A stretch of 64,000 nt of DNA. It comes from Gemmatimonadota bacterium. GTDB taxonomy: Bacteria > JAAXHH01. Below are positions 8,311 through 63,052 of the stretch, piece by piece. The stretch's first letter is position 1. The number at the start of each line of letters is the position of its first letter. Location: NCBI GenBank assembly GCA_026702745.1, contig JAPPBT010000058.1:72408-136407 (forward strand). The letters run 5' to 3'. The notes below the pieces were generated by a model that saw nothing but the letters and a program-made list of their open reading frames with translations, made no database searches and had not been told where the DNA came from. The translations under genes and the position numbers were made by a program.

Positions 8311-9355
8311 ACCACCCGGCGAAGTGCCGCCCCACTACCGGCCCGAGTCCGTCGAGACCTGCTGGCGCGTTCCCTACGGAGAACGGGCGGCCGATGCCCG
8401 CGCGTGGGCGGCGGAACACGGCATCCGATCCTCGGCCTTAGATGAATGGCGCACCGCGCTGCTCCTGGTGGACTGCCAAAACACCTTCTGTCTTCCCGAG
8501 TTCGAACTCTTCGTAGCAGGCCGGAGCGGCCGGGGCGCAGTGGAAGACAACGCGCGGCTCTGCGCCTTTATCTACCGCAATCTACATTCCATCTCGGAAA
8601 TCATCCCGACGATGGACACCCACACGGCCCACCAGGTCTTCCATCCGGTGTTCTGGGTAGACCGGGACGGCGAACACCCCACCGGCGGCGAGACCGTCAT
8701 CACACCGGACGACGTGGAAGCGGGAACCTGGCGCGTCAACCCGGCCGTGGAGGCCGGATTCAGCAACCGGATCGATCTCTCCGCCTACGCATTGCATTAC
8801 GTCCGGCGCCTCACGCGGGACGGCAAGTATCCCCTCATGATCTGGCCTTACCACGCCATGCTCGGGGGTATCGGCCACGCCCTGGTGTCCGCTGTAGAGG
8901 AGGCGGTCTTCTTTCACAGCATCGCCCGGGTGCGGCAGACGCGTTTCGAGATCAAGGGGAACCATGCTCTCACGGAAAACTACTCGGCGTTGCGCCCTGA
9001 AGTGACGGAAGACGCCGAAGGCCGCCCGCTGGGCGTGAAGAACACGCCGCTGGGCGTGAAGAACACGCCGCTGGTCGACCACCTGATGACCTTTGACGCC
9101 GTCATCGTGGCCGGGCAGGCCAAGAGCCACTGCGTGGCGTGGACGGTGGAGGATCTAAAGTCGGAGTTCGCCGCGCACAAGCCGTCCATGACCGCGCGCG
9201 TCTGCCTGCTGGAGGACTGTACCTCGCCGGTCGTCGTGCCCGGTGTGATCGATTTCACCGAAGAGGCGGAGGAGGCCTTCGGCCGTTTCGCCGACGCGGG
9301 CATGCACCGGGTGCGTTCCACCGTGCCCATGGACCGTTGGGGGATTCCGGACTGA
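8300..9355 (+). CDS. Isochorismatase-family cysteine hydrolase (long form), possibly a nicotinamidase-like amidase
   Basis: [11 protein letters not shown] and [11 protein letters not shown] motifs of isochorismatase-like hydrolases; overlaps the nadE stop by 11 nt. Confidence 0.6.
9026..9074 (+). repeat. In-frame 21-bp tandem repeat (ccgctgggcgtgaagaacacg x2.3) encoding PLGVKNT repeats inside the isochorismatase-like CDS
   Basis: Perfect direct repeat in the DNA. Confidence 0.85.
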
Positions 9356-23043: not shown

Positions 23044-23718
23044 TCAGAAGATCGAACCGAGCCAGGCACCGAGGGCTTCCATCCGGCCGGTCAGCAGGGA
23101 GATGCGCGCCATGACCGTGTAGCCGAAGGCCGCGCCGAAGGTCACCATCAGCACCCAGATACCCGCGCGGGACACGTGTCCCAGCACGCCCTTGTGCTCG
23201 ACAGAGAAGAAGAAGTATACCAGGCCGCAGATCACGCCCAGGACGAGTACGACGTGGGAGAAACTGGCGCCCCAGAGCAGGTTGCCCGAAGCATCGAGCA
23301 CCACGAGGGGAATCATGGTACTCTGGACCTGGATGATGAAGTCCGAATCGAGGAAACGGGGCAGGTTGAATCCCGCCGCACCGCCGACGATGAAGGCCAG
23401 GGCCCAGCGGCTGAGCCAGGCCCAGCGTTCGATCAGGCGGGTGAGCAGCAGCAGGCCGAAGACGGCGGGGATAAGGTAGTAGTAGTCCGGCGACCGGCCC
23501 ACGGCGCCGGGCACGACGCCTGACATGAGCGAAGGGAACAGCTTGCCGAGCAGGTTCGGCACCAGGTGGTCCCAGAACCCGACGGCCATCAGGTAAGCGG
23601 CCGAAACGCCGACGAACAGGTGTTCGGCGAACTTGTAGAAGGGATTGTCCCGGTAAAGGAAACTGAGGATCATCAGCGTGAGGGCCGCGTCGATCCAGAG
23701 CATCAGCGTTACATCCAT
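23044..23718 (-). CDS. Integral membrane protein (~6 TM), unknown family; last gene of the candidate novel operon
   Basis: Hydrophobic profile; follows the upstream gene after a 64-nt gap. Confidence 0.5.
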   Translation of the reverse strand: MDVTLMLWIDAALTLMILSFLYRDNPFYKFAEHLFVGVSAAYLMAVGFWDHLVPNLLGKLFPSLMSGVVPGAVGRSPDYYYLIPAVFGLLLLTRLIERWAWLSRWALAFIVGGAAGFNLPRFLDSDFIIQVQSTMIPLVVLDASGNLLWGASFSHVVLVLGVICGLVYFFFSVEHKGVLGHVSRAGIWVLMVTFGAAFGYTVMARISLLTGRMEALGAWLGSIF

Positions 23719-23782
23719 AAATAGTCCTCTATGGCCGGTGTCAGACCCGGTCCCTCTGGCATGTCCGGTCTGTCCGGCCGGC

Positions 23783-24670
23783 CTAGCCTGCCCGGTTACC
23801 CTGGCCCGTTCTGCCCGCCCGGTCCGCCCGGCCGAAGAAATAGGCCAGGTTGCCCAACAGGACCAGCAGTACGATCAGCACGTGGGTCACGACCTGGGGA
23901 CCCATGCGCATGGTGGCCTCCATGGTGGCGTTCCGGTAGGCCGGATACCGGTCCACCAGGGCGGACTCGTACTCGGAAGCCCCTTTGAGGCCGCCCATCA
24001 GGCCGACCAGTTGCTGGGGATAATAGGGATAGAGTTCCGGCGCCACCACGGCCGTGCCGCCTCCCATGACGGGAATCCCCGCGATGTCGCCCGCGAACTG
24101 GATCCACTCCTTCAGTCCCGGGTCCCCTGCGGTCAGGCTCAGGATGATGACGTAGTCCACCATCTCGTCCACGTCCGCGGTTATGGGAAGGTCGTCGAGG
24201 GGCGTGCCCTCCGCGTCGGCGTTGACCAGGGTCCTGAAGTTGACCACCATGGTGTTGATCGCGCCGCCCAGGCCGGCCTTGTACCCCAGGTTCACGAAGT
24301 CCCGGCCGTACGCCTTGTCCGGAAACTCCTCGGGCAGCAGGTTGTCCGTAATCTTCTTGATCTGTCCCACCCCCTCGGGGAACAGGGTGAAGAAGGACAC
24401 CTCGTGGCCGCGGATCATCGTATGCCGCACGAGGGCCTTCGCCATGGGATCCAGCTCGGGAGCGGTGTCCGGACCGTAGTCGAAGGAAAGGAACACCCGC
24501 GACCCGGCCGGAAGTCGTTCCACGGTGTCGAAGATCGACTGGACGATAGGCGTGGGGCTGTCCTGGAAACGGGGTTTCAGGAGCAGTGGAATGCAGACCG
24601 CCGCCCCGATGAGAAGGAAGATGATCCGGCGGTCGATCTGCAGGATGAAATCGGGAATCCGCATGCTCAC
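23783..24670 (-). CDS. Membrane-anchored protein (N- and C-terminal TM helices flanking a ~200-aa non-cytoplasmic domain), unknown family
   Basis: ATGA overlap with the upstream gene. Confidence 0.5.
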   Translation of the reverse strand: MSMRIPDFILQIDRRIIFLLIGAAVCIPLLLKPRFQDSPTPIVQSIFDTVERLPAGSRVFLSFDYGPDTAPELDPMAKALVRHTMIRGHEVSFFTLFPEGVGQIKKITDNLLPEEFPDKAYGRDFVNLGYKAGLGGAINTMVVNFRTLVNADAEGTPLDDLPITADVDEMVDYVIILSLTAGDPGLKEWIQFAGDIAGIPVMGGGTAVVAPELYPYYPQQLVGLMGGLKGASEYESALVDRYPAYRNATMEATMRMGPQVVTHVLIVLLVLLGNLAYFFGRADRAGRTGQGNRAG

Positions 24671-25347
24671 TCTCCCCGTCCCAGGTAGTTGCGTTCGATC
24701 CCCAGGATGATGCGCAGAGAAGTCGCGATGACCCCCAGGGCGATGCCGATCATGATGGCCCGCTGGCCGGCCGTATTGGGCCAGGCCATAATCCAGTTGG
24801 CCAGGTTCGGCAGTTCGAGGAAGGCCAGGCTTTCCGGCATCCAGGCTGTCAGCCAGGCCCCTACGGGCGTCCTACCCAGCAGGATGACCATCGCGGCCGA
24901 CAGGAGGATGGTCGCCTCTTTCGTGCGCGCCCGGAAGGCACGGTAGGACGCCGACGCGACGAAGAAGGCCAGCAGGGAGAACATGGTGGCCGACAGCGGG
25001 TTGTAGACCCCGTCGAACATGAACCGCAGCCAGGAACCCGAGGCCAGGATCTCCCCACCCATCCCGCCGGGGTTGCCCACCTTGAACAGGCCGATCACGA
25101 GGGTGACGAGAAACGCCACCAGGGTCACCACGCTGTAGGGCCAGTCCGCAGCGCGGCTGGAAACGCGTTTCAGGTGAATCTTGAGCAGGCTCCCGCCGCC
25201 GAGGATGAACGCAAAGACGGTGATGATGGCGAAGTAATCCGAGAAACTCTCGTAGAGCGTATTGAAGGGACCCCGCGTCACGAAGTAGCCCGTGATCAGG
25301 ACCACGCCGATGATAAAGGTGATGATGAGGGGTATTCTACGGCGCAT
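24667..25347 (-). CDS. Integral membrane protein (~6 TM), unknown family
   Basis: Hydrophobic profile; starts 5 nt after the upstream TAG stop. Confidence 0.5.
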   Translation of the reverse strand: MRRRIPLIITFIIGVVLITGYFVTRGPFNTLYESFSDYFAIITVFAFILGGGSLLKIHLKRVSSRAADWPYSVVTLVAFLVTLVIGLFKVGNPGGMGGEILASGSWLRFMFDGVYNPLSATMFSLLAFFVASASYRAFRARTKEATILLSAAMVILLGRTPVGAWLTAWMPESLAFLELPNLANWIMAWPNTAGQRAIMIGIALGVIATSLRIILGIERNYLGRGE

Positions 25348-25352
25348 GGGAC

Positions 25353-26330
25353 CTACCTGAAGAGCCAGAGCACGATTTCGGAGACTTCGCGGACGGTTTC
25401 ACTTCCGGTAATGGATTCCAGGGTGGCCAGCGCGCTGCCGGCCAGGATGAATACGATGGCGATGCCCTTGCCGGCGTCCTGTCCCTTCAGGCTGCCCAGC
25501 ATGCGTGGTTCCTTGGACAGGTACGCGCTGGCAGCGAACAGTTCCTCTCCGATCAGCGTATAGTCGCAGGCCGCCACGAAGAAGGGCAACTGGGGAGGCC
25601 TGGCCGTCCCCGCGATCTGTATGGCGCCGATGGAGTTGCCCGTTTCCGCCAGGATAAGCGATTCGGCGTAGAACCCGCCCAGGTAGAAGCAGGCGGCCGG
25701 CTTTTCCCGCACGATGATGCCGTCTACGGCCGCCGCGTAGGCGAACTGCGCATCGGAGACGTAGTGTATGTCGTCTTCCTGGTAGGCGTCGGGGCGGCCC
25801 GCGGTCAGGTAGGATTGCTGCACGGTTTCCCGGGCCACGCTCATGACGAGGGACTTGCGCACGGGCACGTGCAATCTGGAATCGTAGCCCGCGATGATGG
25901 TGGCGAGATGACCCAGCAGGTTCATGGACGCGATGGTCTGCACCTCGTCCATGTCGTTCAGGCCGGGGACGTAGAGGATGGGCTTGCCCATCTCCGTCGC
26001 CCGTCCCACGGCTTCCTCCACCGTCTCCAGGCCGGCGATCTTGCGTATGAAAAGCGGCCGGCCCGCGGAGGCCAGCACCACGTAAAGCAGGATAGCGCCC
26101 GTCAGGACGATCCCCAGGACCAGGGCCTGGGTCCGGTCCGCGTTGAACCAGCCGGATTCGGTGCCGGCCTGGGCCAGTACGGGATCCGGCTGCAGCACGG
26201 AGAAGATTGCCGTGAGGGCGAGGATCGCCCGCGACAAGGAGAAGTCCGCCGCGAAGGCAAGGACCGCCTGCGACAGGCCGGTCGCGGTGGTTAAGTTCTG
26301 CGGTATGCGGGTCGTTGGGCGGAAATGCAT
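25353..26330 (-). CDS. Membrane protein (N-terminal TM pair, soluble middle domain, C-terminal TM), unknown family
   Basis: Start ATG overlaps the upstream TGA (TGATG). Confidence 0.5.
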   Translation of the reverse strand: MHFRPTTRIPQNLTTATGLSQAVLAFAADFSLSRAILALTAIFSVLQPDPVLAQAGTESGWFNADRTQALVLGIVLTGAILLYVVLASAGRPLFIRKIAGLETVEEAVGRATEMGKPILYVPGLNDMDEVQTIASMNLLGHLATIIAGYDSRLHVPVRKSLVMSVARETVQQSYLTAGRPDAYQEDDIHYVSDAQFAYAAAVDGIIVREKPAACFYLGGFYAESLILAETGNSIGAIQIAGTARPPQLPFFVAACDYTLIGEELFAASAYLSKEPRMLGSLKGQDAGKGIAIVFILAGSALATLESITGSETVREVSEIVLWLFR

Positions 26331-27469
26331 CAGGTCTCCACGATCTCCACGTTCGCCCGGGGCACCGTCACGAGCGCTCCGTTCGTCCGGCGCGCTTCCA
26401 GCACCCGTGCGAAGGCGCCCGTGGGAAGCCGCACGGGCTGTTCGGGCAGCGACGCCACCGTAGCGAGTTCACCGAACCAGGGTTCGCGGATCAGGCGTAC
26501 GAGCGAACCGGCTTCAAGGCCGCGGCCGGCCGGGGCCGCCCGATCCGAGGAGGCCTGATCAGCAGACGCCTCGTCGCCGTCGGACCTGATGATGATCTCG
26601 GGACGGATCACACCGGCCCGGATCTGCGTGGCGCCGCTCAGGGAAGCTTCGCGGTCCTGCATGGAACGGAGCAGTTCGAAGGTGCGTTCTGCCATGGGCA
26701 GCCATCCGAAGCCTTCGGTGACGATCATGGTCAGTCCGATGTCTTCCCCGCCAGTCACCGCGACGCCGATCTGGTATCCCAGGAGGTCGCCGATATCGTG
26801 GTAACGCATGCCGCCCACGACAACGCCGGACGCGCCAACCTCTATCAACTTACGCAACGCGTCAAGGGTGATCATGGATCCGCAGCATACGATCCGGCCC
26901 CGCAGACGGTCATCGATCATTTTGCCGGTGACCTCTTCCTCGGGCGATTGGACGATCTGGCTTATGGGCGCGTGCGTTTCGCCCCCCACGCCGAAGATCC
27001 CCTGAATGCAGGCGCCGGCCGTTTCCACCACGACGCCCTCCCCCGGCAGTGTTTCGGTGACCGTGCCGTCGAGGTAGGCGTTGATCCGCACCGGGGTCGA
27101 CGGTTCCCGGATGAGCACCTGGCCGGTCACTTCCGAGACCATTTCGATGGTGCCGCTTTCGGGACCCCGGACGCTGGATTTGAACAATCCGAAGATCCCC
27201 TTCGATTCGGCGATCAGTTCGCCTTTCGCCACCGGTTCGTCCCGCTGCTTGAGCATGCAGCCCGGCACTTCTTCCGGTGCGATGGCCAGGGCATTGGCCA
27301 CATTGACGTTGTGCACCGGTCCGGGCAGGTAGGTCTCGGCGACTACCGTGTCAGGCCGTACCCGGTCGCCGACCTCCACCAGCACCTGGCCGCTCAGCGG
27401 AAGGCGACGCGTCCTGGCGACGACGGTCCGGGGCGATACGCGCAGGCCTGATGTATAGGCGTGGGCCAT
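26330..27469 (-). CDS. Soluble protein whose N-terminus resembles the NqrA/RnfC barrel-sandwich hybrid domain; unknown function
   Basis: LPLSGQVLVEVGDRVRPDTVV...KGELIAESKGIF...SGTIEMVSEVTGQVL pattern; start ATG overlaps the upstream TGA (TGATG). Confidence 0.55.
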   Translation of the reverse strand: MAHAYTSGLRVSPRTVVARTRRLPLSGQVLVEVGDRVRPDTVVAETYLPGPVHNVNVANALAIAPEEVPGCMLKQRDEPVAKGELIAESKGIFGLFKSSVRGPESGTIEMVSEVTGQVLIREPSTPVRINAYLDGTVTETLPGEGVVVETAGACIQGIFGVGGETHAPISQIVQSPEEEVTGKMIDDRLRGRIVCCGSMITLDALRKLIEVGASGVVVGGMRYHDIGDLLGYQIGVAVTGGEDIGLTMIVTEGFGWLPMAERTFELLRSMQDREASLSGATQIRAGVIRPEIIIRSDGDEASADQASSDRAAPAGRGLEAGSLVRLIREPWFGELATVASLPEQPVRLPTGAFARVLEARRTNGALVTVPRANVEIVET

Positions 27470-29271
27470 CAGTCTGGCTCCGGATAGAGGTCGAGTGCGC
27501 GGCAATCCCTTTGCAGCCTTTCCACCCGTTCGGCCGCGTCCGCCGGCCAATGAAGCGGTCTGCCGCGGGTGTCGACGATCACGCCCAGGGGACCGTTCCG
27601 CACGGTACGGGCGACCGTCACGCCCCGTCCGGCGCCGGCGTCGAAACTACGGACGGGCACGACCTCCAGGGCGACCTCCTCCGCCTCCCCGGCCGGAATC
27701 GCGGCCAGTTCGCCCACGGCCGCCTCGTGCGTCCATTCCCCGTCGTCCGTCCTCGCCCTGACGGTCGCGCACGGGGTGCCGCGCGCTCCGGTACCCACGG
27801 GCGCCACGCACGGACCGAGATGGACAAGGCAATCCCGGTCGAAAACCTCCAGTGCCGCGGTTTCATGCACGGTCGACAGCACGCCCAGGTGGGGCATCAT
27901 GAAGATGCTGTCCACCGCCAGGTTCGTGATGCCCTCGGGCTGGAAGGCGTCCACCATCATCAGCGCGGCCTGCGCCCGGCTCGGTGCGTGGGAGAGCACG
28001 CCCCCGCTGCCGATGACCAGGTCCAGGTTCATCAGATCGACCAGGGTCCGGCCGCCCGTCTGCTGGTCGAAGGTGTCCGATATGGTTCGAAGCTGTTGCA
28101 CGCCCTTCAACTCGACGGCGAAGTTCCGGTGCTGCTCGAAGGCCAGCCGCAGGGCCTCGCGGGCCACGGCCTGCTCGATGATCAGCTCCTCCAGGGTCTG
28201 GGGGATGCTGGTGGGCCGGATCATCTTGTTGCCCATGCGGTCTTTCAGGTCGGCGTCGGTCATTTCAAAGGGCAGCCACCGGGCGATGTTATCCAGCCCC
28301 GCCTCCGTCAGCACGTTGGAAATACTGTAGCTCATGCCGAGATTGGCGCTGACGGTCCGGTTGAACGCGCCGCCGAAGACCGAAAACACGTCGGTGGTCG
28401 CACCGCCGATATCCACACCCAGCACGTCGATGCCACTTCGTTCCGCGACGACCCGAACCATCCGTCCCACGGCGCCGGGTGTAGGCATGATCGGCACGTG
28501 GGTCCACGCCATCAGGTCGCTGTACCCGGGCGCCTGGGCCATCACGTGTTCCATGAACAGGGTGTGGATCTGTTCCCGGGCGGGGCCCAGGTTCTCCGCT
28601 TCGAGCACGGGCCGCAGGTTATCCACCCGGCTGAGTTCCGTCCGTTCGGCCAGAATTCGTCCGACGTCTTCGCGGGCGTCGGCGTTCCCGGCGTAGATGA
28701 CCGGCAGATCGTAGCCGCTGCCCAGCCGGGGTCTCGGGTCCGCCGCGGCGATCAGTTCGGCCATCTCGACCACGTGGGACTTCGTGCCGCCGTCCACGCC
28801 GCCGGACAGCAGGATCATGTCCGGCCGGAGCTGACGTATGCGTTCGATGCGCTCGTGGGGCAGGCGCCCGTCGTTTGACGCCAGGGTTTCCATGACGATG
28901 GCGCCCGCGCCCAGGGCCGCCCGTTCGGCACTCTCGGCGGTCATGCTCTTGACCACGCCGGCCACCATCATCTGGAGCCCTCCGCCGGCGCTGCTCGTCG
29001 AGACGTAGAGGTCCACCCCGCGGTCACCCTCGGCGGGCGACACGATCCGTTCTCCGTCGAGGATCTCGCGGCCGGACTGCTCCTCCACCTCGCGCACCGC
29101 GTTGAGGACGCCCCGCGTGACGTCCTCGAAGGGCGCTTCCACGGTCGTTGGCGCCTCACCGCGAACGACGAGACGGTAGGCGTCGGCGCGTCGCTTGATC
29201 AGGATGGCCTTGGTGGTGGTGCTGCCGCAGTCCGTGGCCAGGATGACGCTGGTTTCTGGTGGAAGGGACAT
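27469..29271 (-). CDS. GlmL/MutL-like ASKHA-superfamily ATPase (actin/Hsp70 fold) with a C-terminal ~130-aa extension
   Basis: Phosphate-1 ILATDCGSTTTKAIL, phosphate-2 VLGVDIGGATTDVFSV and adenosine VIGSGGVLSH motifs; 600 aa. Confidence 0.7.
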   Translation of the reverse strand: MSLPPETSVILATDCGSTTTKAILIKRRADAYRLVVRGEAPTTVEAPFEDVTRGVLNAVREVEEQSGREILDGERIVSPAEGDRGVDLYVSTSSAGGGLQMMVAGVVKSMTAESAERAALGAGAIVMETLASNDGRLPHERIERIRQLRPDMILLSGGVDGGTKSHVVEMAELIAAADPRPRLGSGYDLPVIYAGNADAREDVGRILAERTELSRVDNLRPVLEAENLGPAREQIHTLFMEHVMAQAPGYSDLMAWTHVPIMPTPGAVGRMVRVVAERSGIDVLGVDIGGATTDVFSVFGGAFNRTVSANLGMSYSISNVLTEAGLDNIARWLPFEMTDADLKDRMGNKMIRPTSIPQTLEELIIEQAVAREALRLAFEQHRNFAVELKGVQQLRTISDTFDQQTGGRTLVDLMNLDLVIGSGGVLSHAPSRAQAALMMVDAFQPEGITNLAVDSIFMMPHLGVLSTVHETAALEVFDRDCLVHLGPCVAPVGTGARGTPCATVRARTDDGEWTHEAAVGELAAIPAGEAEEVALEVVPVRSFDAGAGRGVTVARTVRNGPLGVIVDTRGRPLHWPADAAERVERLQRDCRALDLYPEPD

Positions 29272-29275
29272 GGAG

Positions 29276-29665
29276 TCAGTTTACCGTGTCATCCGCCCCG
29301 GAGGCGTGATGCTCAATGCGCTGGATCAGGAACTCCACGTTCTCCCGGCGCTCGATGGCCTCGGCGATCCGGTCGTAGTCCGACGCGTCCACCACCATGT
29401 GAATGAAGGGGCTCAGGAAAGCCATGAACTGGCCGCCCAGAAACGAGAGGGGTTTCATGGATTCCAGGAAGAGGACCGCGGGCGCGGTGAGCTCGCGCGC
29501 GGCTATGGCCTCGGCGATCCGGTCAAGCAGGGCCTGCTGTTCCGCCACGGTCTCTGATGAATCACTCATGCCGGTCCGCCTGGTGCACTTGATCGGCCTG
29601 GTCGTCCTGGTCGGCCTGGTCGGCCTGGTCGGTCCGACCGGTCCTCTAACAGGCTGTCGGAGCAT
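29276..29665 (-). CDS. Small soluble protein of unknown function; N-terminal (PTR)n region may be coding (alternative start at ATG 29569)
   Basis: ORF starts 9 nt after the PhyH stop; conserved-looking core MSDSSETVAEQQALLDRIAEAIA... Confidence 0.4.
   Translation of the reverse strand: MLRQPVRGPVGPTRPTRPTRTTRPIKCTRRTGMSDSSETVAEQQALLDRIAEAIAARELTAPAVLFLESMKPLSFLGGQFMAFLSPFIHMVVDASDYDRIAEAIERRENVEFLIQRIEHHASGADDTVN
29595..29639 (-). repeat. 9-bp tandem repeat (ggcctggtc x5) in the 5' region of the small ORF, encoding (PTR)n if translated
   Basis: Direct repeats in the DNA. Confidence 0.8.
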
Positions 29666-29674
29666 CTCACGGCC

Positions 29675-30526
29675 TCAGCTAATTACAGATTCCGGACCCG
29701 CGTGTCGGCCGATCCATTCCCGCAAGGGTATGTCTTCGGGCAGGGGCGAGGTATAGCCATGACCGCCCGAAGGTCCTGCGCCCAGGAGCTGCCTGCGGAT
29801 GGGGTCGCTGCGGTCCATGTAGTGATCCACGGTCATGTTGTCCCGGGGACGCAGCCAGCGGTAACTGTAGCCGTAGAACAACACCTTGCGGGTGATATCG
29901 GAGTAGTTGATCCCGGATGCGTGCCAGAGACGGCGATCGAAAAACACGGCGTCGCCGGCCGCCGCCCGTATGGGAATGGCACCTTCCGGATCCTGATCGG
30001 CCTCATCTGGAAACTCAATCGCTTCGAGACGGTGGCTGCCCGGAATGGCGTGGAAGTTGCCCCGGTCGGTCGCCGTGCAGTCGCTCAGGAAGAAGGCCAC
30101 TTTCAGCGACACCCGCGGTCGGGGCGTGGTCTCCAGATCGATATTGAGCCTGCCGCTGTCCTGATGCCAGCCCAGACGCCGCTTTTTGGGCTTCTGATCC
30201 GCCGGCGACGGCGGCGACACGATCAAATGTGAATGGTACAGCTGGATGTGCCAGCCGAGAATGCCCCAGACCTTGGGGAAGGTCTTCGGCCAGTCGAGCA
30301 GTTCCAGCAGCAGATCGTCCTGTCCGATGATGTCGAAATGATTCTTGATACTGTAGGGGCTGCCTCCCATGTTGGGACGGCGTTCAACATCGATGCGTTC
30401 CGCGATCCGGTCCAGCGCTTCCACCATATCGCCAGGCAGCACGTTCTCCACGATGAAAAAACCCTGTTCATCGAAGAGGCGCCGCTCTTCGTCCGTCAGG
30501 CAGTAGGCAAGACAGGAAGGGTCCAA
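29675..30526 (-). CDS. Phytanoyl-CoA dioxygenase (PhyH) family Fe(II)/2-oxoglutarate oxygenase; first gene of the operon
   Basis: PhyH-like HxD...H pattern (WHQDSG ... HAIPGSH), 283 aa. Confidence 0.7.
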   Translation of the reverse strand: MDPSCLAYCLTDEERRLFDEQGFFIVENVLPGDMVEALDRIAERIDVERRPNMGGSPYSIKNHFDIIGQDDLLLELLDWPKTFPKVWGILGWHIQLYHSHLIVSPPSPADQKPKKRRLGWHQDSGRLNIDLETTPRPRVSLKVAFFLSDCTATDRGNFHAIPGSHRLEAIEFPDEADQDPEGAIPIRAAAGDAVFFDRRLWHASGINYSDITRKVLFYGYSYRWLRPRDNMTVDHYMDRSDPIRRQLLGAGPSGGHGYTSPLPEDIPLREWIGRHAGPESVIS

Positions 30527-30592
30527 GGCGGAGCTCCGGGTTCGGAACGCCAGATCGTCACAAAACGTAAATGTCGCAATTCGTACCCGTAT

Positions 30593-30621
30593 TTTTTAAC
30601 GACTCGACACACCGTGGTCAA
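30593..30621 (-). promoter_or_regulatory. Candidate sigma70-like promoter (TTGACC-N17-TAAAAA) in a locally AT-rich tract ~60 nt upstream of the PhyH start
   Basis: Hexamer match; unusual AT-rich patch in GC-rich DNA. Confidence 0.3.
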
Positions 30622-30650
30622 CCACTTTGAAGACCGGGCCGACGCGCAGG

Positions 30651-32285
30651 TCACGATTCCCGAACCACGAATTTCGCCCTGATCTCCGGACTTTCCCCGT
30701 ATCCAATCCGGATCGCCCGCGCCTTTATCTGATACTCGCCGGCATCAAGGCGCAGCGGTCCGGTATACAACAACCAGTGGGGGTCATCTCCCGTCTGAAG
30801 CGTGTAAGCGATGGATGCGCCTTGCGTGGCGCAGTGAAGCTGCAGCAGTATCGGCCCTTCATACGAGCCGCCCTCCAGGGCCGGCTCGATCCCGGGACTG
30901 TCAGCGCATATGGGCACGCAGACCACGGGGGCGGTCTCGGGCTGACGGCCCTCCGGATACCAGTTCCGGACCATCTCGCTTTCAGGGACCCGGCCCATGT
31001 CCCCGGTCTCTTCGAGCCAGGCGTCGAGCGCCGTTCGCATCCGCTCCAGGTCGGTACGGATCCGGGGATCGTCGGCCAGGTTGCGTACTTCATGGGGATC
31101 GGCCGCCGTGTCGTAAAACTCCTCGACGGGCCTTGGGTACCGGAACAGGGCCGACTGCGCCTCGTCAAGGCCGCCCTCCAGGCGCAGCCGCCAGATTTCC
31201 TGCATGATCGGATGGCGGTTTCGATAGGGGATCCAGGAAAGGTAAGGCAGGTCCGGCCGGTAATTGCGAATGTACTTGTACCGACCGTCCCGAACGGCCC
31301 GTACCATGTCGTAGGATACGTCGTGGCGGTCCCGGCTGGCGAAGACGAACTCGCGCGGCGGTCGAGCCTGTCTCCCGAGAAAGGCGCGGCCCTGGATATG
31401 GTGCGGGATTTCGACGCTGGCCAGGGAAAGCATCGTGGGTCCCAGGTCGATCGTGCTGACCAGGTCTTCGCATACCCGCCCGCCTTCCAGGTCCGGCCCC
31501 CTCGCGATGAGCGGAACATGAATACCCGCGTCATAGGGCCAGCGCTTGCCCCGGGGCAAGGGACCATGGTCGCTCCAGTTGAAGACGTACGTATTCCCGG
31601 CAAGGCCATCTTCGTCCAGCTGGTCCAGGAGCGTGCCGAATTCCCGGTCGTTGTGGGCTATATGGGTGTACATGCGGGCAAGGGCCTCCCGCACCACCGG
31701 CGTGTCGGGCAGGTGGGGCGGCGGCTCGATGGCATTGGGATCGAACGCTGGCGAAGGACACTTTTCCGGCCACATCCCGCTCTCGTGGCTGCGCATGAGG
31801 TTGAAGACCGCGAAGAAAGGTTGTTCCGGATCGGGCCGGTTGCGCCAGTGGGCATCCTTTCCCAGGTCGTCCCACGCCGTCAGCGGCGGTTCGAACTGGT
31901 AGTCGGTTTTGAAGTTGTTCGTACAGTAGTATCCCGCCGCCCGCAGGTATTCGGTGAAGCACTTGACGAAGTGGGGCGGAACCGCGGAATAGGGCGTGGG
32001 TAACTCAGGTACAGCGGGATCGGCGTGGGTGGTCCGCATGTGGTGCGTGCCGATGGAGGTGGCGTACATCCCGGTAATGATCGCGGAGCGGGCCGGTGCG
32101 CACACGCCGGACGTGGAGAAACAGTTCGTCCACCGGCATCCCTGCGCAGCGAAGCGGTCCACGTTCGGTGTGCGGGCCACCGGGTCGCCGTAGCAACCGT
32201 AATAGGGGCCGGTGTCCTCGAAGGAGATCCACAGGATGTTTGGTCTGGACGGGGAATGCAAGCGCACTCTCTTCTTTTCGGTCAT
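30651..32285 (-). CDS. Sulfatase (formylglycine-dependent type) lacking an obvious signal peptide, with a C-terminal extra domain
   Basis: CAPARSAIITGMY sulfatase signature; 544 aa. Confidence 0.8.
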   Translation of the reverse strand: MTEKKRVRLHSPSRPNILWISFEDTGPYYGCYGDPVARTPNVDRFAAQGCRWTNCFSTSGVCAPARSAIITGMYATSIGTHHMRTTHADPAVPELPTPYSAVPPHFVKCFTEYLRAAGYYCTNNFKTDYQFEPPLTAWDDLGKDAHWRNRPDPEQPFFAVFNLMRSHESGMWPEKCPSPAFDPNAIEPPPHLPDTPVVREALARMYTHIAHNDREFGTLLDQLDEDGLAGNTYVFNWSDHGPLPRGKRWPYDAGIHVPLIARGPDLEGGRVCEDLVSTIDLGPTMLSLASVEIPHHIQGRAFLGRQARPPREFVFASRDRHDVSYDMVRAVRDGRYKYIRNYRPDLPYLSWIPYRNRHPIMQEIWRLRLEGGLDEAQSALFRYPRPVEEFYDTAADPHEVRNLADDPRIRTDLERMRTALDAWLEETGDMGRVPESEMVRNWYPEGRQPETAPVVCVPICADSPGIEPALEGGSYEGPILLQLHCATQGASIAYTLQTGDDPHWLLYTGPLRLDAGEYQIKARAIRIGYGESPEIRAKFVVRES

Positions 32286-32295
32286 TTCGATACTA

Positions 32296-33399
32296 TCACA
32301 AACCCGCGATCGTCTCCCCGGCGAGCTGGTCGACGACCGCTTTCAGATCACCGGTTTCATCATAGGTCTTGAGCTGCCGGTCCGCGCTGCTGCCCTGCTC
32401 GAGCATGACCCGGATGTACTCGATCTCCTCCCGGACGCCGAGAGGGTCCACCACGTCGTCCACGATTTCCAGCAATTCCTCGATGAGATATCGCAGGGGT
32501 ACTTCCTCTTCCTTGCCGAAGTCGACCAGTTTCCCGTCCAGCCCGTCCTTGATGGCGCGCCACTTGTTCTCGGCCACCAGGTCGCGCCGGTAGTACCGCC
32601 AGGACTGGTTCTCACGGCGCAGCCGGATCAACTTGGCCGCCACCGCCCTGACCAGGGCCACGATGGCCACCACTTCGTCGATTTTGGTGATGCAGTCGCA
32701 GATCCGGAGCTCCAGCGTGGGAAAACGGGGATGGGGACGCACATCCCACCAGATCTTCGTGGGCTCGTCCATGCAGCCGGTCTTGATCATCGTCTGGATG
32801 AAATGGTCGTACTCGACGGCCGAGTCGAACCGATCGGGTATACCGGTCCGGGGCAACTCGGAGAACACGATGCTCCTGTAGGATTTAAGCCCCGTGTTGT
32901 CTCCCATCCAGAAGGGGGATGAAGACGAAAGGGCCAGGACGTGGGGCAGGAAATAGCCGATCTGGTTCATGGTGTCGATGCGCAATTCCCGGTCGGGTAT
33001 GCCGACGTGAATGTGCATGCCGAAGATAAGCAGGCGGCGGGCGACGTACTGCAGGTCGGCAACCAGGCTGCGGTACCGGTCTTTCTCGGTGATTTCCTGC
33101 TCCTGCCAGCGGGAAAAGGGATGGGTGCCGGCCGCCACGATCCGGTGGCCGCTCTTTTCGGCGATTTCGGACACCATGCTCCGAAGCCGGGCGATCTCCT
33201 TGCGGACTTCCTTGATGTCCTTGCAGACCTCGGTACCCATTTCCACCTGGGACTGAAGGAATTCCGGCTTGACCTGGTCGCGAAAAACCCGCTTCCCCTT
33301 TTCGAGAAACTCGGAGATGTAGGAAGTCAGTTCCCGCGACTCGGGGTCGATGATCTGGTATTCCTCTTCGACGCCAAGCGTCATTTCTTCTAAGGTCAT
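32296..33399 (-). CDS. Carboxylate-amine ligase, glutamate-cysteine ligase family 2 (YbdK-like)
   Basis: N-terminal TLGVEEEYQIID and overall GCS2-like sequence; 367 aa. Confidence 0.75.
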   Translation of the reverse strand: MTLEEMTLGVEEEYQIIDPESRELTSYISEFLEKGKRVFRDQVKPEFLQSQVEMGTEVCKDIKEVRKEIARLRSMVSEIAEKSGHRIVAAGTHPFSRWQEQEITEKDRYRSLVADLQYVARRLLIFGMHIHVGIPDRELRIDTMNQIGYFLPHVLALSSSSPFWMGDNTGLKSYRSIVFSELPRTGIPDRFDSAVEYDHFIQTMIKTGCMDEPTKIWWDVRPHPRFPTLELRICDCITKIDEVVAIVALVRAVAAKLIRLRRENQSWRYYRRDLVAENKWRAIKDGLDGKLVDFGKEEEVPLRYLIEELLEIVDDVVDPLGVREEIEYIRVMLEQGSSADRQLKTYDETGDLKAVVDQLAGETIAGL

Positions 33400-35540: not shown

Positions 35541-36389
35541 TCAGGCCGAACGTTTCAAATCCAATGCCTTCGCCGCCGGTCCCACCAGGAACAGCGCGTA
35601 CAGCGGAGCGTTCACGATTTCGTAAAGTCGCAGTACCATTTCCGCCAGCGCCACGAGAAAAGCCACCCCGATGCGGCCGTTGCGCGAGGAGACGGACGTA
35701 GCGGGGTCCGTGACCATGAAGAAGGCCATGAGCTGGTACATGGGGCCGGTGATGGGCGCGACTTCGGACAGAAACGGGGTTCCGGTCATTAAGGACCGCA
35801 CGTAGGCGAGCGCGACGAAGGACACGGCGTAGGTGAAGGTAACGTGAAAACGCTTCGCCCGCCAGAGGATGACCGAACCCAGCACCCAGATCACGGCCAT
35901 GGCCCAGAGGTCGTTGCCCCACTGCTCGCTCAAGGCGGCCACGGTCCCGGGCGCCGCGAAGAGCACCACGCAGATGCCCAGGTTGGATGGATTCCACAGG
36001 TGCCGGCCCCTGAAGCGGAGGACGTATTTCGACAGGATGGAAAGCAGGCTGGCGATGGCGTAGGGCCACAGGGCAAGCGACCTCAGCAGGATCCCGCAGC
36101 TGATCCCGGTGATGTACGCGCTGGCGGGGTTGAGCCACCGGCCCGTCAGCAGGCGACCCAGGGCCAGCTCCGCCGCCAGTGCCACGGCGATCGCCGTGAA
36201 CAGTTGCGACAGGTCGTGGAGGAATCCCACGTAAAGCTGGCCGAAGACCAGGATCATGGTGATCAGGCCGGAGGACAGGTACCGCGGATCGATCTGCCAT
36301 CCCGCTCCATTCGGCGGTCCCGGCGGCGGACCGGGCGTCCCGGCGCTTCCTGTCGAACCGGCCGCTGCGGCCTTTGTTGCGCCCATCAT
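35541..36389 (-). CDS. Polytopic membrane protein (~7 TM), unknown family
   Basis: ATGA overlap with the upstream FG-GAP gene. Confidence 0.5.
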   Translation of the reverse strand: MMGATKAAAAGSTGSAGTPGPPPGPPNGAGWQIDPRYLSSGLITMILVFGQLYVGFLHDLSQLFTAIAVALAAELALGRLLTGRWLNPASAYITGISCGILLRSLALWPYAIASLLSILSKYVLRFRGRHLWNPSNLGICVVLFAAPGTVAALSEQWGNDLWAMAVIWVLGSVILWRAKRFHVTFTYAVSFVALAYVRSLMTGTPFLSEVAPITGPMYQLMAFFMVTDPATSVSSRNGRIGVAFLVALAEMVLRLYEIVNAPLYALFLVGPAAKALDLKRSA

Positions 36390-38200
36390 CCCTCCGGTTC
36401 AGTTACGGTGTGCAGCCGGTTGATATCGGGACGTTCCAGCGTCTGTACTGTCCCGCCCGGCCAGCGTACCTCGACCCGTTCGACCTCGGTGGCGACCCCC
36501 AGGCCGAAATGCCGTCTCCGCTGGCTCTGGGCTGCGAAACTCGCGCTTGCCGTCACGACCTGGAGCTGTTGCCGGCCGTCCCGGAAAACCCGGACCTCCG
36601 CGCCGATGGCGCTCGCGTTGCTGCTTCTGCCCTTCAGCTCGAAGGCAATCCAAGCGTTCTCACCGTCGACCTCGTTCCTGTACAGTACCAGGGGACCGTC
36701 CTGGTTGGCCACCACCACGTCGAGCACGCCCCGGTTGAAGAGGTCTGCGAGGGCGACTCCCCTGCCGTCGTACCGGTCGGTCACGCCGACGGATTCCGCC
36801 ACGTCGTAGAAACGCCCGGTGCCGTCGTTCAGGTACAGCCTGGACCGCTCGTATCCCGACAGGCTTTGATCGCCCATAGGCGCCCAGTTCCGCACGTCCT
36901 GGAAGATGTTGTTGTTACCCATGGCGACCCGCGACATCTCGTACCAGTAGTCCTCCTCCGGATCGGCCGAGACAAAGCCGTTGGTGACGAACAGGTCCAC
37001 GAAACCGTCGTTGTTCAGGTCCCCGAACTGCGCGCCCCAGGCCCAGCCCGCGTCGGCGATCTCGCCCTCGGCGATGTTGATCATCCGGCCGTTTTCCGCG
37101 ATCAGGTTGCGGCGGAGATTGTTCCCCTGGAACAGGTAGCCCCGCTTCGAGATATTCGTCACGTACACGTCCGCGCGTCCGTCGTTGTACAGGTCGCCGA
37201 AGGCCACGTTCATACCGCTCTTGGACGTCTCTTCCAGCGAGGTCCCGGTGGCCTGCTCGAAACGCTTCCCCTCGACATTAAGGAGGAGCACCTCGGGACC
37301 GTAATCGTTGGCCAGGTACAGATCGGGCCAGCCGTCGCCGTTCAGGTCCGCCGCGCCGACGGACATGGTCCACCGCGTGCAGTCCGCCCCGTACGATTCC
37401 GTCACGTCCTCGAAACGGCCGTTACCCCGGTTCATGAAGAGATAGTTGTGGCCGCCGTTGTTCGCGTATTCGAAACTCTCCTGCATGATGCGCGTCGTCG
37501 TAACCTGCCACAGGTCATGGATTTCCGAGAAATACCCGCCCACGTAGAGATCGATCAGGCCGTCCCGGTCGACGTCCGTCCACACGGCGCTGTTGGCGTT
37601 CATCCACCGGTCGAACCCCGCCTCGGAGGTCGCGTCCTCAAAGCTTCCGTCGCCCAGGTTCCGGTACAGGCGCTGGCGCCCCCACATGTAGATGAAGACA
37701 TCCTCGAATCCGTCGTTATCGTAATCCCCCCACGCCGAGCCCATGGACACGCCGCCGTCCCCGTTCACATCGGCCAGGCCGGCCTCCCCGGCAACCTCCG
37801 AAAAACTTCCGTCGCCCAGGTTCCGGTACAGGGCGTTCGGCGTGCCCTTCCGACTGCTGGTCACGTAAAGGTCCTGCCACCCGTCGTTGTCGAAATCCAC
37901 GACCGAGACGGATGCCCCGAGGGCCGAGATATGGGGCATGATCGGGTCGAGCTGCGGATCGAGCTGCGGTTTTGCGTGGACGAAGGCAATGCCGGCCGCC
38001 GCCGTCACATCGGTCAACAGGAATCCATACCGGCCCGCGATTGCCGTGTCTGTCTCGCGCCCGTCTGCCTGGCGTACGTCTGTCTCACGTACGTCTACGT
38101 CTCGGGACAGCCACCGGTCGAAGAAAAAGGGCGAAATGATCAGTATGATGAACAGCGCGGTCGCCGATGTCCGTATTGTACTGGAGGAGGCTGGTGACAT
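36386..38200 (-). CDS. Secreted FG-GAP/VCBS-repeat protein with a C-terminal ASPIC/UnbV-like domain (CRTAC1-like)
   Basis: Repeated DxDGDGxxD-like motifs (DFDNDGWQDLYV, DYDNDGFEDVF, DLNGDGWPDLY, DLNNDGFVDLF), signal peptide, 604 aa from ATG 38200. Confidence 0.7.
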   Translation of the reverse strand: MSPASSSTIRTSATALFIILIISPFFFDRWLSRDVDVRETDVRQADGRETDTAIAGRYGFLLTDVTAAAGIAFVHAKPQLDPQLDPIMPHISALGASVSVVDFDNDGWQDLYVTSSRKGTPNALYRNLGDGSFSEVAGEAGLADVNGDGGVSMGSAWGDYDNDGFEDVFIYMWGRQRLYRNLGDGSFEDATSEAGFDRWMNANSAVWTDVDRDGLIDLYVGGYFSEIHDLWQVTTTRIMQESFEYANNGGHNYLFMNRGNGRFEDVTESYGADCTRWTMSVGAADLNGDGWPDLYLANDYGPEVLLLNVEGKRFEQATGTSLEETSKSGMNVAFGDLYNDGRADVYVTNISKRGYLFQGNNLRRNLIAENGRMINIAEGEIADAGWAWGAQFGDLNNDGFVDLFVTNGFVSADPEEDYWYEMSRVAMGNNNIFQDVRNWAPMGDQSLSGYERSRLYLNDGTGRFYDVAESVGVTDRYDGRGVALADLFNRGVLDVVVANQDGPLVLYRNEVDGENAWIAFELKGRSSNASAIGAEVRVFRDGRQQLQVVTASASFAAQSQRRRHFGLGVATEVERVEVRWPGGTVQTLERPDINRLHTVTEPEG

Positions 38201-38411
38201 GGCCTGAAGGGGCAAGAAATCCAGCGGGTGGACAGACGGGAATGCCACGTGTATTACGAATGGTCCGGGTGCCGTTTCAAGGTAGAAACCCGGCACTGGC
38301 CTGTCAAGATGCATTGACACGCCGGACCGGAAGCACTATAAACTCACCGACAGCCCGATCCGCAGATCGATCGAAGTTCACGCAGCGAATCATACTCTAC
38401 CGGAGTGATCA

Positions 38412-62785: not shown

Positions 62786-63052
62786 CTGGGGACGTTGATT
62801 CCAATCTGCGGAGTGAATCGGTACGCATGGCCTGCTGGCGCGGCGTCGCGAATACGGGCTTTCAATATATCCCCGCACCGCCGGTCTCGGCTATTGTTTT
62901 ATGCGGAAATATGCGGGCGAAAACCGCCTGGATGCGTCTCGCGGCCATGACATGCAGACCCGTTTTTTTCTATTGCATTGCGGCCGCTCAACATCTAATT
63001 TGCGCTAATGTGTTTTGTCTGTGAAAATCGGCCGAATCACTATCTGGTTTCA

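What the first reader, a model, noticed from the sequence alone, without database searches (positions are those of the whole stretch)
27469..29271. GlmL/MutL-like ASKHA ATPase with no glutamate mutase partner
All three ASKHA nucleotide-binding motifs are readable: DCGSTTTK (phosphate 1), DIGGATTD (phosphate 2) and GSGG (adenosine). Characterised members of this clade (GlmL/MutL) sit between the B12-dependent glutamate mutase subunits, and the related diol-dehydratase reactivase large subunits are also ~600 aa with the same fold. Here there is no B12 enzyme anywhere in the window. The protein carries an extra ~130-aa beta-rich C-terminal domain and is embedded among membrane proteins. That points to a different role, for example an ATP-driven assembly or transport engine.
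Basis: partly seen in the sequence, partly recalled or inferred. Interest (0 to 1): 0.7.

Follow-up and report, generated by a model that had tools for sequence, protein, structure and literature searches.

The report
Orphan GlmL-like ATPase with membrane partners
This actin-fold ATPase is related to the glutamate mutase helper GlmL but has no mutase partner; it is the core of a widespread, highly conserved and so far undescribed seven-gene set that pairs it with a swivel-domain protein and four membrane proteins, which probably form an ATP-driven membrane machine.

Summary
ORF 27469-29271 (-) encodes a 600-aa protein. It matches Pfam MutL/GlmL end to end, all three ASKHA nucleotide motifs are invariant, and it carries an extra beta-rich C-terminal domain.

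It is not a true GlmL. It fails all three NCBIfam GlmL cut-offs, which E. coli GlmL passes, and the two are 29% identical. Probes for glutamate mutase subunits and methylaspartase find nothing in the window or in 169 related loci.

The gene is the second in a tight seven-gene operon (23044-29569, minus strand):
- a small helical protein;
- the ATPase;
- a 379-aa partner with barrel-sandwich, swivelling and KOW domains;
- four membrane proteins (DUF6754 plus three with no family).

This set recurs in more than ten phyla, and the ATPase stays about 65% identical across them. ATPase and partner are fused in 42 of 150 representative clusters, through at least two independent events. The four membrane genes move, and duplicate, as one block.

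No paper or curated family found here describes the system. The best reading, which is inferred, is that the ATPase and swivel partner form a cytoplasmic ATP-driven engine, similar in domain make-up to the diol dehydratase reactivase DdrA. This engine would work on the membrane module. The substrate is unknown.

The parts
29276..29569 (-). s129: small (about 97 aa) helical protein with the conserved hydrophobic motif PA(I/V)xFLESxKPLSFLGSQ. It is the first gene of the operon. The ORF could also start at 29665, but orthologs do not conserve that extension.
   Evidence: Alignment A4. Found directly upstream of the ATPase in 49 of 53 loci with enough upstream sequence. Its stop lies 4 nt before the ATPase ATG. 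No Pfam or NCBIfam match.
27469..29271 (-). GlmL-like ASKHA ATPase, 600 aa (the finding itself).
27829..29244 (-). ASKHA (MutL/GlmL-type) nucleotide-binding domain, residues 10-481. Phosphate-1 motif DCGSTTTK at 29209-29232, phosphate-2 motif DIGGATTD at 28390-28413, adenosine motif GSGG at 28000-28011.
   Evidence: motif residues invariant in 36 orthologs. 29% identical to E. coli GlmL over residues 10-429.
27472..27828 (-). Clade-specific beta-rich C-terminal domain, residues 482-600. Absent from canonical GlmL.
   Evidence: Block pLDDT 80-95; strands at 482-567 and a helix at 579-592. Detected in 86 of 150 clade representatives. No relative in the PDB by sequence.
26330..27469 (-). Partner protein, 379 aa: barrel-sandwich hybrid domain (about residues 11-171; 26957-27439), swivelling beta/beta/alpha domain (about 185-296; 26582-26917) and KOW/SH3-like domain (about 317-379; 26333-26521). 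Its ATG overlaps the ATPase stop codon by 1 nt.
25353..26330 (-). DUF6754 membrane protein, 325 aa: signal-like segment, transmembrane helix, conserved alpha/beta-patterned DUF6754 domain of about 210 aa (predicted cytoplasmic), C-terminal transmembrane helix. Most orthologs also carry an N-terminal periplasmic Fn3 domain, which is missing here. Its ATG overlaps the partner's stop codon by 1 nt.
   Evidence: Pfam DUF6754 E 1.4e-118. Fn3 in orthologs. Hydropathy.
24667..25347 (-). M226: polytopic membrane protein (about 5-6 transmembrane helices), conserved motif ATMFSxLAFFIASAAYRAFRAR. No known family.
   Evidence: No consistent Pfam or PDB relative. Follows DUF6754 in 30 of 31 loci.
23783..24670 (-). 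M295: invariant N-terminal DRR motif, transmembrane helix, alpha/beta-patterned domain of about 230 aa (predicted periplasmic by the positive-inside rule), C-terminal transmembrane helix. Overlaps M226 by 4 nt.
   Evidence: Alignment A6. Hydropathy. No Pfam or PDB relative.
23044..23718 (-). M224: polytopic membrane protein, conserved motifs YSFLYKDNPxYKFAEH and FGxxFGYTVMAR. No known family. Last gene of the conserved block.
   Evidence: No Pfam or PDB relative. Part of the four-gene block that duplicates as a unit.

Best explanation
The gene encodes the nucleotide-hydrolysing core of a conserved, undescribed multi-protein system. It is not a glutamate mutase accessory protein.

Shown:
- It is an ASKHA-fold protein of the MutL/GlmL superfamily with an intact nucleotide site and a clade-specific C-terminal beta domain.
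- It is translationally coupled to a partner made of barrel-sandwich, swivelling and KOW domains, and in other lineages it is repeatedly fused to that partner.
- It is co-operonic in many phyla with a small helical protein and an invariant block of four membrane genes: DUF6754, two polytopic proteins, and a protein anchored at both ends with a predicted periplasmic domain.

Inferred mechanism:
- ATPase and partner form one cytoplasmic engine. Its domain make-up (actin-fold ATPase plus swivelling domain) parallels the large subunit of diol dehydratase reactivase, DdrA.
- ATP binding and hydrolysis close and open the two ASKHA lobes. That motion is passed through the mobile swivelling and barrel-sandwich domains.
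- The engine docks on the cytoplasmic DUF6754 domain and/or the conserved N-terminal DRR peptide of M295, much as PilM binds PilN and FtsA binds FtsN.
- This drives a conformational cycle in the membrane module, either moving a substrate across the inner membrane or transmitting force to the periplasmic Fn3 and alpha/beta domains.
- One engine can serve several diverged membrane modules, because the four-gene block occurs in up to three tandem copies beside a single ATPase-partner pair.

The substrate is unknown. In several phyla the neighbours are glycine cleavage genes, a lipoate-protein ligase and an outer-membrane receptor gene, which hints at uptake linked to amino-acid or lipoate metabolism.
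For: Identity and intact active site.

Not a GlmL:
- Fails the NCBIfam cut-offs (238.8 vs 475, 225.8 vs 600, 184.5 vs 204), while E. coli GlmL passes (510.7 and 898.5).
- Only 29% identical to E. coli GlmL.
- Glutamate mutase probes give 0 hits in 2.28 Mb of related loci, while the GlmL probe hits 114 sequences.

Operon structure: junctions overlap by 1 or 4 nt or are 4-5 nt apart, apart from 64 nt before the last gene.

Conserved neighbourhood across Gemmatimonadota, Latescibacterota, Zixibacteria, Eisenbacteria, WOR-3, TA06, Ignavibacteria, Nitrospirales, Brocadiales and Deltaproteobacteria. Reciprocal search from DUF6754.

Fusions: 42 of 150 representatives, e.g. P0241 where the partner part is 41% identical over its full length. 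At least two independent events.

The ATPase is closest in structure to the membrane-machine adaptors FtsA and PilM.

The membrane block duplicates as a unit; copies are 45-50% identical.

Topology predictions.

Strong sequence constraint, about 65% identity across phyla.
Against: - No biochemical data exist. ATP hydrolysis, complex formation and any membrane association of the ATPase are all untested.
- In about a third of loci with enough sequence, the membrane genes are not within 10 kb of the ATPase, e.g. in Brocadia and WOR-3. In WOR-3 the partner gene sits alone elsewhere.
- A related fused family of about 950 aa has no membrane genes nearby. The ATPase-partner unit can therefore exist without an adjacent membrane module.
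- The ATPase model is only moderately confident (pLDDT 73.7) and is poor in its most conserved loops.
- The swivelling domain lacks a conserved His at the phospho-histidine position. It is a widespread fold, so the DdrA parallel may be convergent.
- Topologies come from a crude hydropathy scan and the positive-inside rule only.
Confidence: 0.5

Rival explanations
1. Actin-like scaffold or adaptor. The protein acts like FtsA or PilM. Nucleotide-dependent oligomerisation or conformational switching recruits and organises the membrane proteins, for example in envelope biogenesis or division. It does no mechanical work on a substrate.
Against: No significant Pfam FtsA, PilM or MreB hit. Sequence homology points to the GlmL/hydantoinase branch, whose characterised relatives are enzymes or accessory proteins rather than filaments. 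Tandem multiplication of membrane modules beside a single ATPase looks more like a shared energiser than a scaffold. Scaffolds do not need a mobile swivelling domain partner.
Confidence: 0.2
2. Soluble chaperone or reactivase for a non-B12 enzyme. Like GlmL, DdrA and EutA are thought to do for B12 enzymes, the ATPase-partner pair uses ATP to open a client enzyme and exchange a damaged cofactor or restore activity. The glycine cleavage P or H protein would be one candidate client. The membrane genes would then be a separate function that happens to be syntenic.
For: It is homologous to GlmL. The ASKHA plus swivelling domain composition parallels DdrA. gcvT-gcvH-gcvPA-gcvPB lie directly upstream in about 20 of 80 loci, and a lipoate-protein ligase gene flanks the cluster in 14. 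The fused paralog family stands alone without membrane genes.
Against: The window has no glycine cleavage genes near the cluster. The membrane block is linked to the ATPase in about two thirds of loci from either search direction, in many phyla, with overlapping start and stop codons. No soluble enzyme is a universal neighbour.
Confidence: 0.13
3. ATP-dependent metabolic enzyme of the hydantoinase, oxoprolinase or acetone carboxylase type, or a kinase. The swivelling and barrel-sandwich domains would shuttle an activated group between active sites. The membrane proteins would import the substrate.
Against: Both hydantoinase hits are below the Pfam cut-offs. There is no conserved His at the phospho-carrier position and no conserved lipoyl or biotinyl lysine in the barrel-sandwich domain. 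No catalytic partner domain such as Hydantoinase_B was found in the cluster.
Confidence: 0.1
4. Canonical GlmL role. The protein serves a glutamate mutase or another B12 mutase that is encoded elsewhere in the genome.
For: Databases name it 'glutamate mutase L' or 'methylaspartate mutase'. It is a member of Pfam MutL.
Against: It fails every curated GlmL model, which a true GlmL passes. Glutamate mutase and methylaspartase probes give no hit in the window or in 169 loci. It has an extra domain and a different set of conserved partners.
Confidence: 0.03

Closest known systems
GlmL / MutL, the accessory protein of coenzyme-B12-dependent glutamate mutase (NCBIfam NF040745, TIGR01319; e.g. E. coli O157:H7 ECs_0763), and the related ornithine-pathway protein Or-4 (NF040744)
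   Same: Same Pfam family (PF13941), aligned end to end over the ASKHA domain. Same three nucleotide-binding motifs. 29% identical to E. coli GlmL over 439 residues.
   Different: Scores about half of the curated cut-offs. 600 aa versus 462 aa, with an extra C-terminal beta domain. Not located between glmS and glmE, and no mutase in 2.28 Mb of related loci. Has its own conserved partners.
Diol/glycerol dehydratase reactivase large subunit (DdrA, GdrA, PduG; PDB 2d0o)
   Different: No sequence-level match to the reactivase Pfam families at E<=0.01. The swivelling domain is on a separate polypeptide together with barrel-sandwich and KOW domains. No DdrB-like small subunit or B12 enzyme is present. 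Membrane partners take their place.
FtsA and PilM, actin-fold adaptors of the divisome and the type IV pilus machine
   Different: No significant sequence-profile match. Different partners: no PilNOPQ or Fts genes in the cluster. The ASKHA domain is larger (about 480 aa) and carries an extra C-terminal domain.
Hsp70-type motors (DnaK; by analogy the mitochondrial mtHsp70-TIM23 and ER BiP-Sec61 import motors, cited from general knowledge)
   Same: ASKHA nucleotide-binding domain followed by a beta-rich C-terminal domain. Very high cross-phylum conservation. Full-length Hsp70s appear among the Foldseek hits. They set a precedent for an ASKHA ATPase acting as the motor of a membrane channel.
   Different: Low TM-scores (about 0.2). 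No Hsp70 profile match. No J-domain or GrpE-like partner. This is an analogy only.
RnfC / NqrA N-terminal domain of the Rnf and Na+-NQR membrane redox pumps
   Different: No NADH, FMN or Fe-S domains. No conserved cysteines in the partner. None of the four membrane proteins matches RnfD/E/A/G or NqrB-E.

Membership tests
Pfam PF13941 (MutL/GlmL superfamily, ASKHA clan) | Full-length match above the gathering score | tested here: met
   435.6 bits against a cut-off of 27, profile positions 1-450 of 450.
ASKHA ATPases | Phosphate-1, phosphate-2 and adenosine motifs present and conserved | tested here: met
ASKHA ATPases | ATP binding and hydrolysis | not testable with these tools
   Needs purified protein.
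GlmL, methylaspartate mutase accessory protein (NF040745 equivalog) | Score at or above the curated cut-off of 475 bits | tested here: not met
   238.8 bits. The E. coli GlmL control scores 510.7.
GlmL family (TIGR01319 subfamily) | Score at or above the curated cut-off of 204.05 bits | tested here: not met
   184.5 bits. The control scores 898.5, and seven other clade members score 71-173.
GlmL, methylaspartate mutase accessory protein | Encoded with glmS and glmE (glutamate mutase subunits) | tested here: not met
   tblastn with E. coli GlmS, GlmE and methylaspartase gave 0 hits in the window plus 169 loci. No B12 family appears in Pfam scans of the window or among recurrent neighbours.
Or-4, GlmL-related ornithine degradation protein (NF040744) | Score at or above the curated cut-off of 600 bits | tested here: not met
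   225.8 bits.
Diol/glycerol dehydratase reactivase large subunit (DdrA/PduG) | Sequence membership of the reactivase family, and a swivelling domain within the same chain | tested here: not met
Diol/glycerol dehydratase reactivase large subunit (DdrA/PduG) | Partnered with a B12-dependent dehydratase and a small reactivase subunit | tested here: not met
   None in the window or in related loci.
FtsA / PilM | Profile match to the family, and the family's cognate partners (FtsZ/FtsN or PilNOPQ) in the cluster | tested here: not met
   No significant Pfam FtsA or PilM hit. The partners are different proteins. The resemblance is structural only.
FtsA / PilM | Binding of a membrane partner's N-terminal peptide, or polymerisation | not testable with these tools
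   Would need co-folding or biochemistry. The invariant DRR peptide of M295 is only a lead.
Hydantoinase/oxoprolinase (Hydantoinase_A, Hydant_A_N) | Score at or above the Pfam gathering scores | tested here: not met
   20.1 bits against 22.9, and 17.5 against 25.2.
Rnf / Na+-NQR complexes (tested on the partner and membrane genes) | RnfC/NqrA-type subunit together with RnfD/E/A/G or NqrB-E membrane subunits and redox cofactor sites | tested here: not met
   Only the N-terminal barrel-sandwich domain matches. The membrane proteins have no Rnf or Nqr hits. The partner has no conserved Cys.
Known anti-phage defence systems (PADLOC) | Any of the seven proteins matches a defence model | tested here: not met
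   0 families for all seven proteins.

The most novel reading that the evidence does not exclude
The seven or eight genes encode a previously unrecognised class of bacterial inner-membrane machine. Its motor is an actin-fold (ASKHA) ATPase working through a swivelling-domain partner, rather than an ABC, AAA+, P-type or rotary ATPase. One cytoplasmic engine would serve interchangeable four-subunit membrane modules that import a nutrient or transmit force across the envelope.
Probability: 0.35. Interest if true: 0.9.

Novelty: new variant of a known kind. Interest (0 to 1): 0.7.

Why it matters
Thousands of database entries in this clade are labelled 'glutamate mutase L' or 'methylaspartate mutase'. 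That label implies a B12 fermentation pathway these organisms show no sign of having at these loci, so the annotation is misleading.

The protein instead marks a large, strongly conserved gene set. It is spread over at least ten phyla, most of them uncultivated FCB-group lineages, plus anammox Planctomycetes and Nitrospirales. None of its components has a known function.

Sequence constraint at the level of core housekeeping proteins, repeated gene fusion, and block duplication of the membrane module all point to an important multi-subunit machine. If the motor really is an actin-fold ATPase, this would add a new way of energising a bacterial membrane complex. It would also connect the poorly understood GlmL, DdrA and EutA 'reactivase' ATPases to a broader mechanical role.

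The recurring link to glycine cleavage and lipoate ligase genes gives a concrete starting point for identifying a substrate.

Tried and rejected
- Canonical GlmL role: rejected, using the curated cut-offs with an E. coli control and glutamate mutase probes.
- B12 enzyme elsewhere in the window: none found.
- Lipoylated or biotinylated carrier role for the barrel-sandwich domain: rejected, because the lysine position is not conserved.
- Phospho-histidine relay through the swivelling domain: unlikely, because there is no conserved His.
- Rnf/Nqr-like redox pump: rejected, because only the N-terminal domain matches and there are no cofactor motifs.
- Defence system: no PADLOC hit.
- Riboswitch control, for example a glycine riboswitch upstream of the gcv-linked versions or in the window: no Rfam hit.
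- Homology among the four membrane proteins: none by hhalign.
- PDB sequence relatives: none for the ATPase, DUF6754 domain, M295, M226, M224 or the C-terminal domain. The only hits are Fn3 in DUF6754 orthologs and KOW in the partner.
- Literature searches for DUF6754, PF13941, TIGR01319, GlmL plus ASKHA, and related terms returned nothing relevant.
- Other recurrent neighbours were sought in 160 loci. Only glycine cleavage genes, a lipoate ligase, a TonB-dependent receptor-like gene, a family-5 solute-binding protein, and an ORF read by eye as pyruvate phosphate dikinase (six metagenome loci) turned up. None is universal.
- The afdb50 fold library was unavailable, so no cultured host could be identified.
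Full report
**What is there.** The minus-strand ORF 27469-29271 encodes a 600-aa protein.
- It matches Pfam PF13941 (MutL/GlmL) over the whole profile: residues 10-481, E 2.7e-130.
All are invariant in an alignment of 36 orthologs.
- Residues 482-600 fall outside the family model. AlphaFold2 predicts a confident, mostly beta domain with one terminal helix.
- This domain has no relative in the PDB by sequence.

**It is not a GlmL in the curated sense.** The protein scores well below all three NCBIfam cut-offs:
- 238.8 bits against 475 for the GlmL equivalog;
- 225.8 against 600 for the ornithine-pathway relative Or-4;
- 184.5 against 204.05 for TIGR01319.

As a control I fetched the E. coli O157:H7 Sakai glmS-glmL-glmE cluster. 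Its 462-aa GlmL passes the two GlmL models, with 510.7 and 898.5 bits. Seven other members of the window protein's clade all fail. The window protein is 29% identical to E. coli GlmL over residues 10-429, and E. coli GlmL has no C-terminal domain.

**No mutase partner.**
- Pfam scans of about 37 of the roughly 59 candidate ORFs in the window, including every one of 350 aa or more, show housekeeping and hydrolytic enzymes but no B12-binding or mutase family. A regular-expression scan for the B12-binding motif is also negative.
- tblastn with E. coli GlmS, GlmE and methylaspartase finds nothing in the window or in 169 related loci (2.28 Mb). The E. coli GlmL probe hits 114 of them.
- Clustering of all ORFs in 80 genome loci and 80 metagenome loci finds no recurrent B12 enzyme.

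**The real context is a seven-gene operon.** All genes are on the minus strand. Junctions overlap by 1 or 4 nt, or are 4-5 nt apart, apart from 64 nt before the last gene. In order:
- s129 (29276-29569), a small helical protein;
- the ATPase (27469-29271);
- a 379-aa partner (26330-27469);
- a DUF6754 protein (25353-26330);
- M226 (24667-25347);
- M295 (23783-24670);
- M224 (23044-23718).

Hydropathy predicts no transmembrane segment in the first three and two to five in the last four.

**Conservation.**
- Homologs of the ATPase are about 65% identical across Gemmatimonadota, Latescibacterota, Zixibacteria, Eisenbacteria, WOR-3, TA06, Ignavibacteria, Nitrospirales, Brocadia/Scalindua and Deltaproteobacteria MAGs. 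The window's closest relatives are Gemmatimonadota MAGs at 94%.
- In loci with enough flanking sequence, s129 is present in 49 of 53, the partner in 45 of 53, and each of the four membrane genes in 35-36 of 53. All four plus the partner occur together in 34 of 53.
- The reciprocal search started from DUF6754 in metagenome contigs. M226, M295 and M224 follow it in 30 of 31 loci with room, and the ATPase is present in 18 of 31 with at least 4.5 kb upstream.
- The four-gene membrane block occurs in two or three tandem copies beside a single ATPase-partner pair. In the one locus compared, the copies are 45-50% identical.

- for the C-terminal domain, Spt5/NusG KOW domains.

The lysine that would carry lipoate or biotin is not conserved, nor is a histidine at the phospho-carrier position. 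Several polar motifs are invariant: QGIFGxGGE, GVAITGxE, TEGFG and GATQIRAGVxRPE.

**Fusions link the ATPase and the partner.**
- Among the best 150 representatives (clusters at 50% identity) of the ATPase clade, 42 carry the partner fused at the C-terminus.
- P0241 (995 aa) is a complete ATPase followed by a complete partner that is 41% identical to the window's.
- A neighbour-joining tree rooted on E. coli GlmL places such full fusions inside the unfused clade, next to the window protein. A large family of about 950 aa (ATPase plus two barrel-sandwich domains plus swivel, no KOW) clusters elsewhere. Fusion therefore happened at least twice.
- In three examples, the 950-aa family sits alone without membrane genes.

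**Structure of the ATPase.** The model has mean pLDDT 73.7. Confidence is low in three of the most conserved segments: 95-135, 218-249 and 387-407.
- Next come BcrAD-type activators, EutJ and acetone carboxylase beta.
- Foldseek gives the same broad ASKHA picture.
- No PDB entry matches by sequence.

**Membrane proteins.**
- DUF6754 proteins usually have a signal peptide and a periplasmic Fn3 domain, then a transmembrane helix, the conserved domain of about 210 aa with a beta-alpha alternation, and a C-terminal transmembrane helix. The Fn3 domain is missing in the window's version.
- M295 has an invariant N-terminal DRR motif, a transmembrane helix, an alpha/beta-patterned domain of about 230 aa that the positive-inside rule places in the periplasm, and a C-terminal transmembrane helix.
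- M226 and M224 are polytopic.
- None of the last three has a consistent Pfam or PDB relative.
- The four proteins are unrelated to each other.

**Other context in related loci.**
- A protein of about 150 aa with two transmembrane helices (f8) precedes s129 in 33 of 80 loci. It is absent from the window.
- gcvT-gcvH-gcvPA-gcvPB lie directly upstream in several phyla (gcvP in about 20 of 80 loci). A lipoate-protein ligase gene flanks the cluster in 14 loci, and a TonB-dependent-receptor-like gene follows it in at least eight.
- No riboswitch was found.
- These associations are not universal. The window has none of them.

**Interpretation.**
- Shown: a GlmL-superfamily ASKHA protein with an intact nucleotide site; a clade-specific domain; an obligate-looking partner with mobile domains; and a conserved, modular membrane gene block.
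- Inferred: ATPase and partner form a cytoplasmic ATP-driven engine that works on the membrane module, either in transport or in force transmission to periplasmic domains. Its composition of ASKHA plus swivelling domain parallels DdrA.
- Alternatives considered: an FtsA/PilM-like scaffold; a soluble reactivase for a non-B12 enzyme such as the glycine cleavage system; a hydantoinase-like enzyme; and a canonical GlmL role. The last is close to excluded.

**What is known.** Nothing in the searchable literature or in the curated family libraries describes this system. Database names are limited to 'glutamate mutase L', 'methylaspartate mutase', 'TIGR01319 family' and 'KOW domain-containing protein'.

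**Verdict.**
- The protein is a new variant within a known superfamily.
- The system around it is uncharacterised and widespread.
- Function and substrate remain to be shown.

Noticed in passing
L083 4825-21803; L085 4903-21803; also L007, L010, L011, L014, L048, L054, L066, L070, L071, L075: In several phyla the cluster sits in one same-strand array: gcvT-gcvH-gcvPA-gcvPB-f8-s129-ATPase-partner-(membrane block x1-2)-lipoate-protein ligase-TonB-dependent-receptor-like gene. In Latescibacterota the ligase gene lies directly upstream of f8 instead. This may be a lipoate or glycine link, or just inherited gene order.
   Followed up: partly
L090, L096, L098, L104, L110, L114, L122, L141, L165 (three copies); L083, L085, L010, L011, L014, L041, L045, L061 (two or three copies): The four-gene block DUF6754-M226-M295-M224 is duplicated or triplicated in tandem beside a single ATPase-partner pair. 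In L083, the one locus compared, the copies are 45-50% identical. This suggests interchangeable membrane modules.
   Followed up: partly
P0309, P0427, P0510, P0525 and about 40 of the 150 representatives; loci L086-L088: A separate paralog family of about 950 aa fuses the ASKHA domain to two barrel-sandwich domains and a swivel domain, without the KOW or C-terminal domain. Some members add an N-terminal HTH_3 domain. It occurs in the same candidate phyla and sits alone without membrane genes.
   Followed up: partly
window 29592-29636 (minus strand): A 9-nt tandem repeat (GACCAGGCC, about 4-5 copies) lies just upstream of the likely s129 start codon at 29569. It reads as PTRPTRPTR if the longer ORF starting at 29665 is used. 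Orthologs do not conserve this extension.
   Followed up: no
window 27469-29271, protein residues 95-135, 218-249, 387-407: Three of the most conserved stretches of the ATPase, including SSAGGGLQMMVAGVVKSMTAESAERAALGAGAIVM, are the least confident parts of the AlphaFold2 model. They may fold only in complex. Two cysteines are invariant: C15, inside the phosphate-1 loop, and C481.
   Followed up: no
window 58850-60799 (+) and 60827-62878 (-): Two convergent paralogous genes each encode a large DUF6785 plus DUF6784 protein (649 and 683 aa). Another uncharacterised family pair.
   Followed up: no
window 35541-36389 (-) and 36386-38320 (-): A 282-aa protein with an NQR2_RnfD_RnfE-family match (E 1.1e-11) overlaps the end of a 644-aa FG-GAP/ASPIC-UnbV protein. 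This is an isolated Rnf/Nqr-like membrane subunit with no other Rnf or Nqr family among the ORFs scanned in the window.
   Followed up: no
window 26315-27451 (+) and 27451-28878 (+): Long plus-strand ORFs (378 and 475 aa) lie antisense to the partner and ATPase genes. They are shadow ORFs of a high-GC genome. For the first, third-position GC is 0.69, against 0.86 for the ATPase gene on the opposite strand. Antisense ORFs of this kind form a single spurious 'family' across loci.
   Followed up: yes
L081, L082, L084 at about 7250-9140: In Zixibacteria the gene upstream of f8-s129-ATPase encodes a TPR + LppC + Peripla_BP_6 protein, which resembles LpoA. In Latescibacterota a family-5 solute-binding protein gene, with about 2.4 kb of further unexamined sequence, is inserted between the ATPase and partner genes (L013, L016, L018, L028, L038).
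   Followed up: no
window 29675-33399 and 55661-57205: The window carries two sulfatases, a PhyH dioxygenase and a GCS2 carboxylate-amine ligase immediately upstream of the operon. The closest relatives are Gemmatimonadota MAGs (94% identity to VXTP01000030.1). None of these neighbours is conserved outside that lineage.
   Followed up: partly
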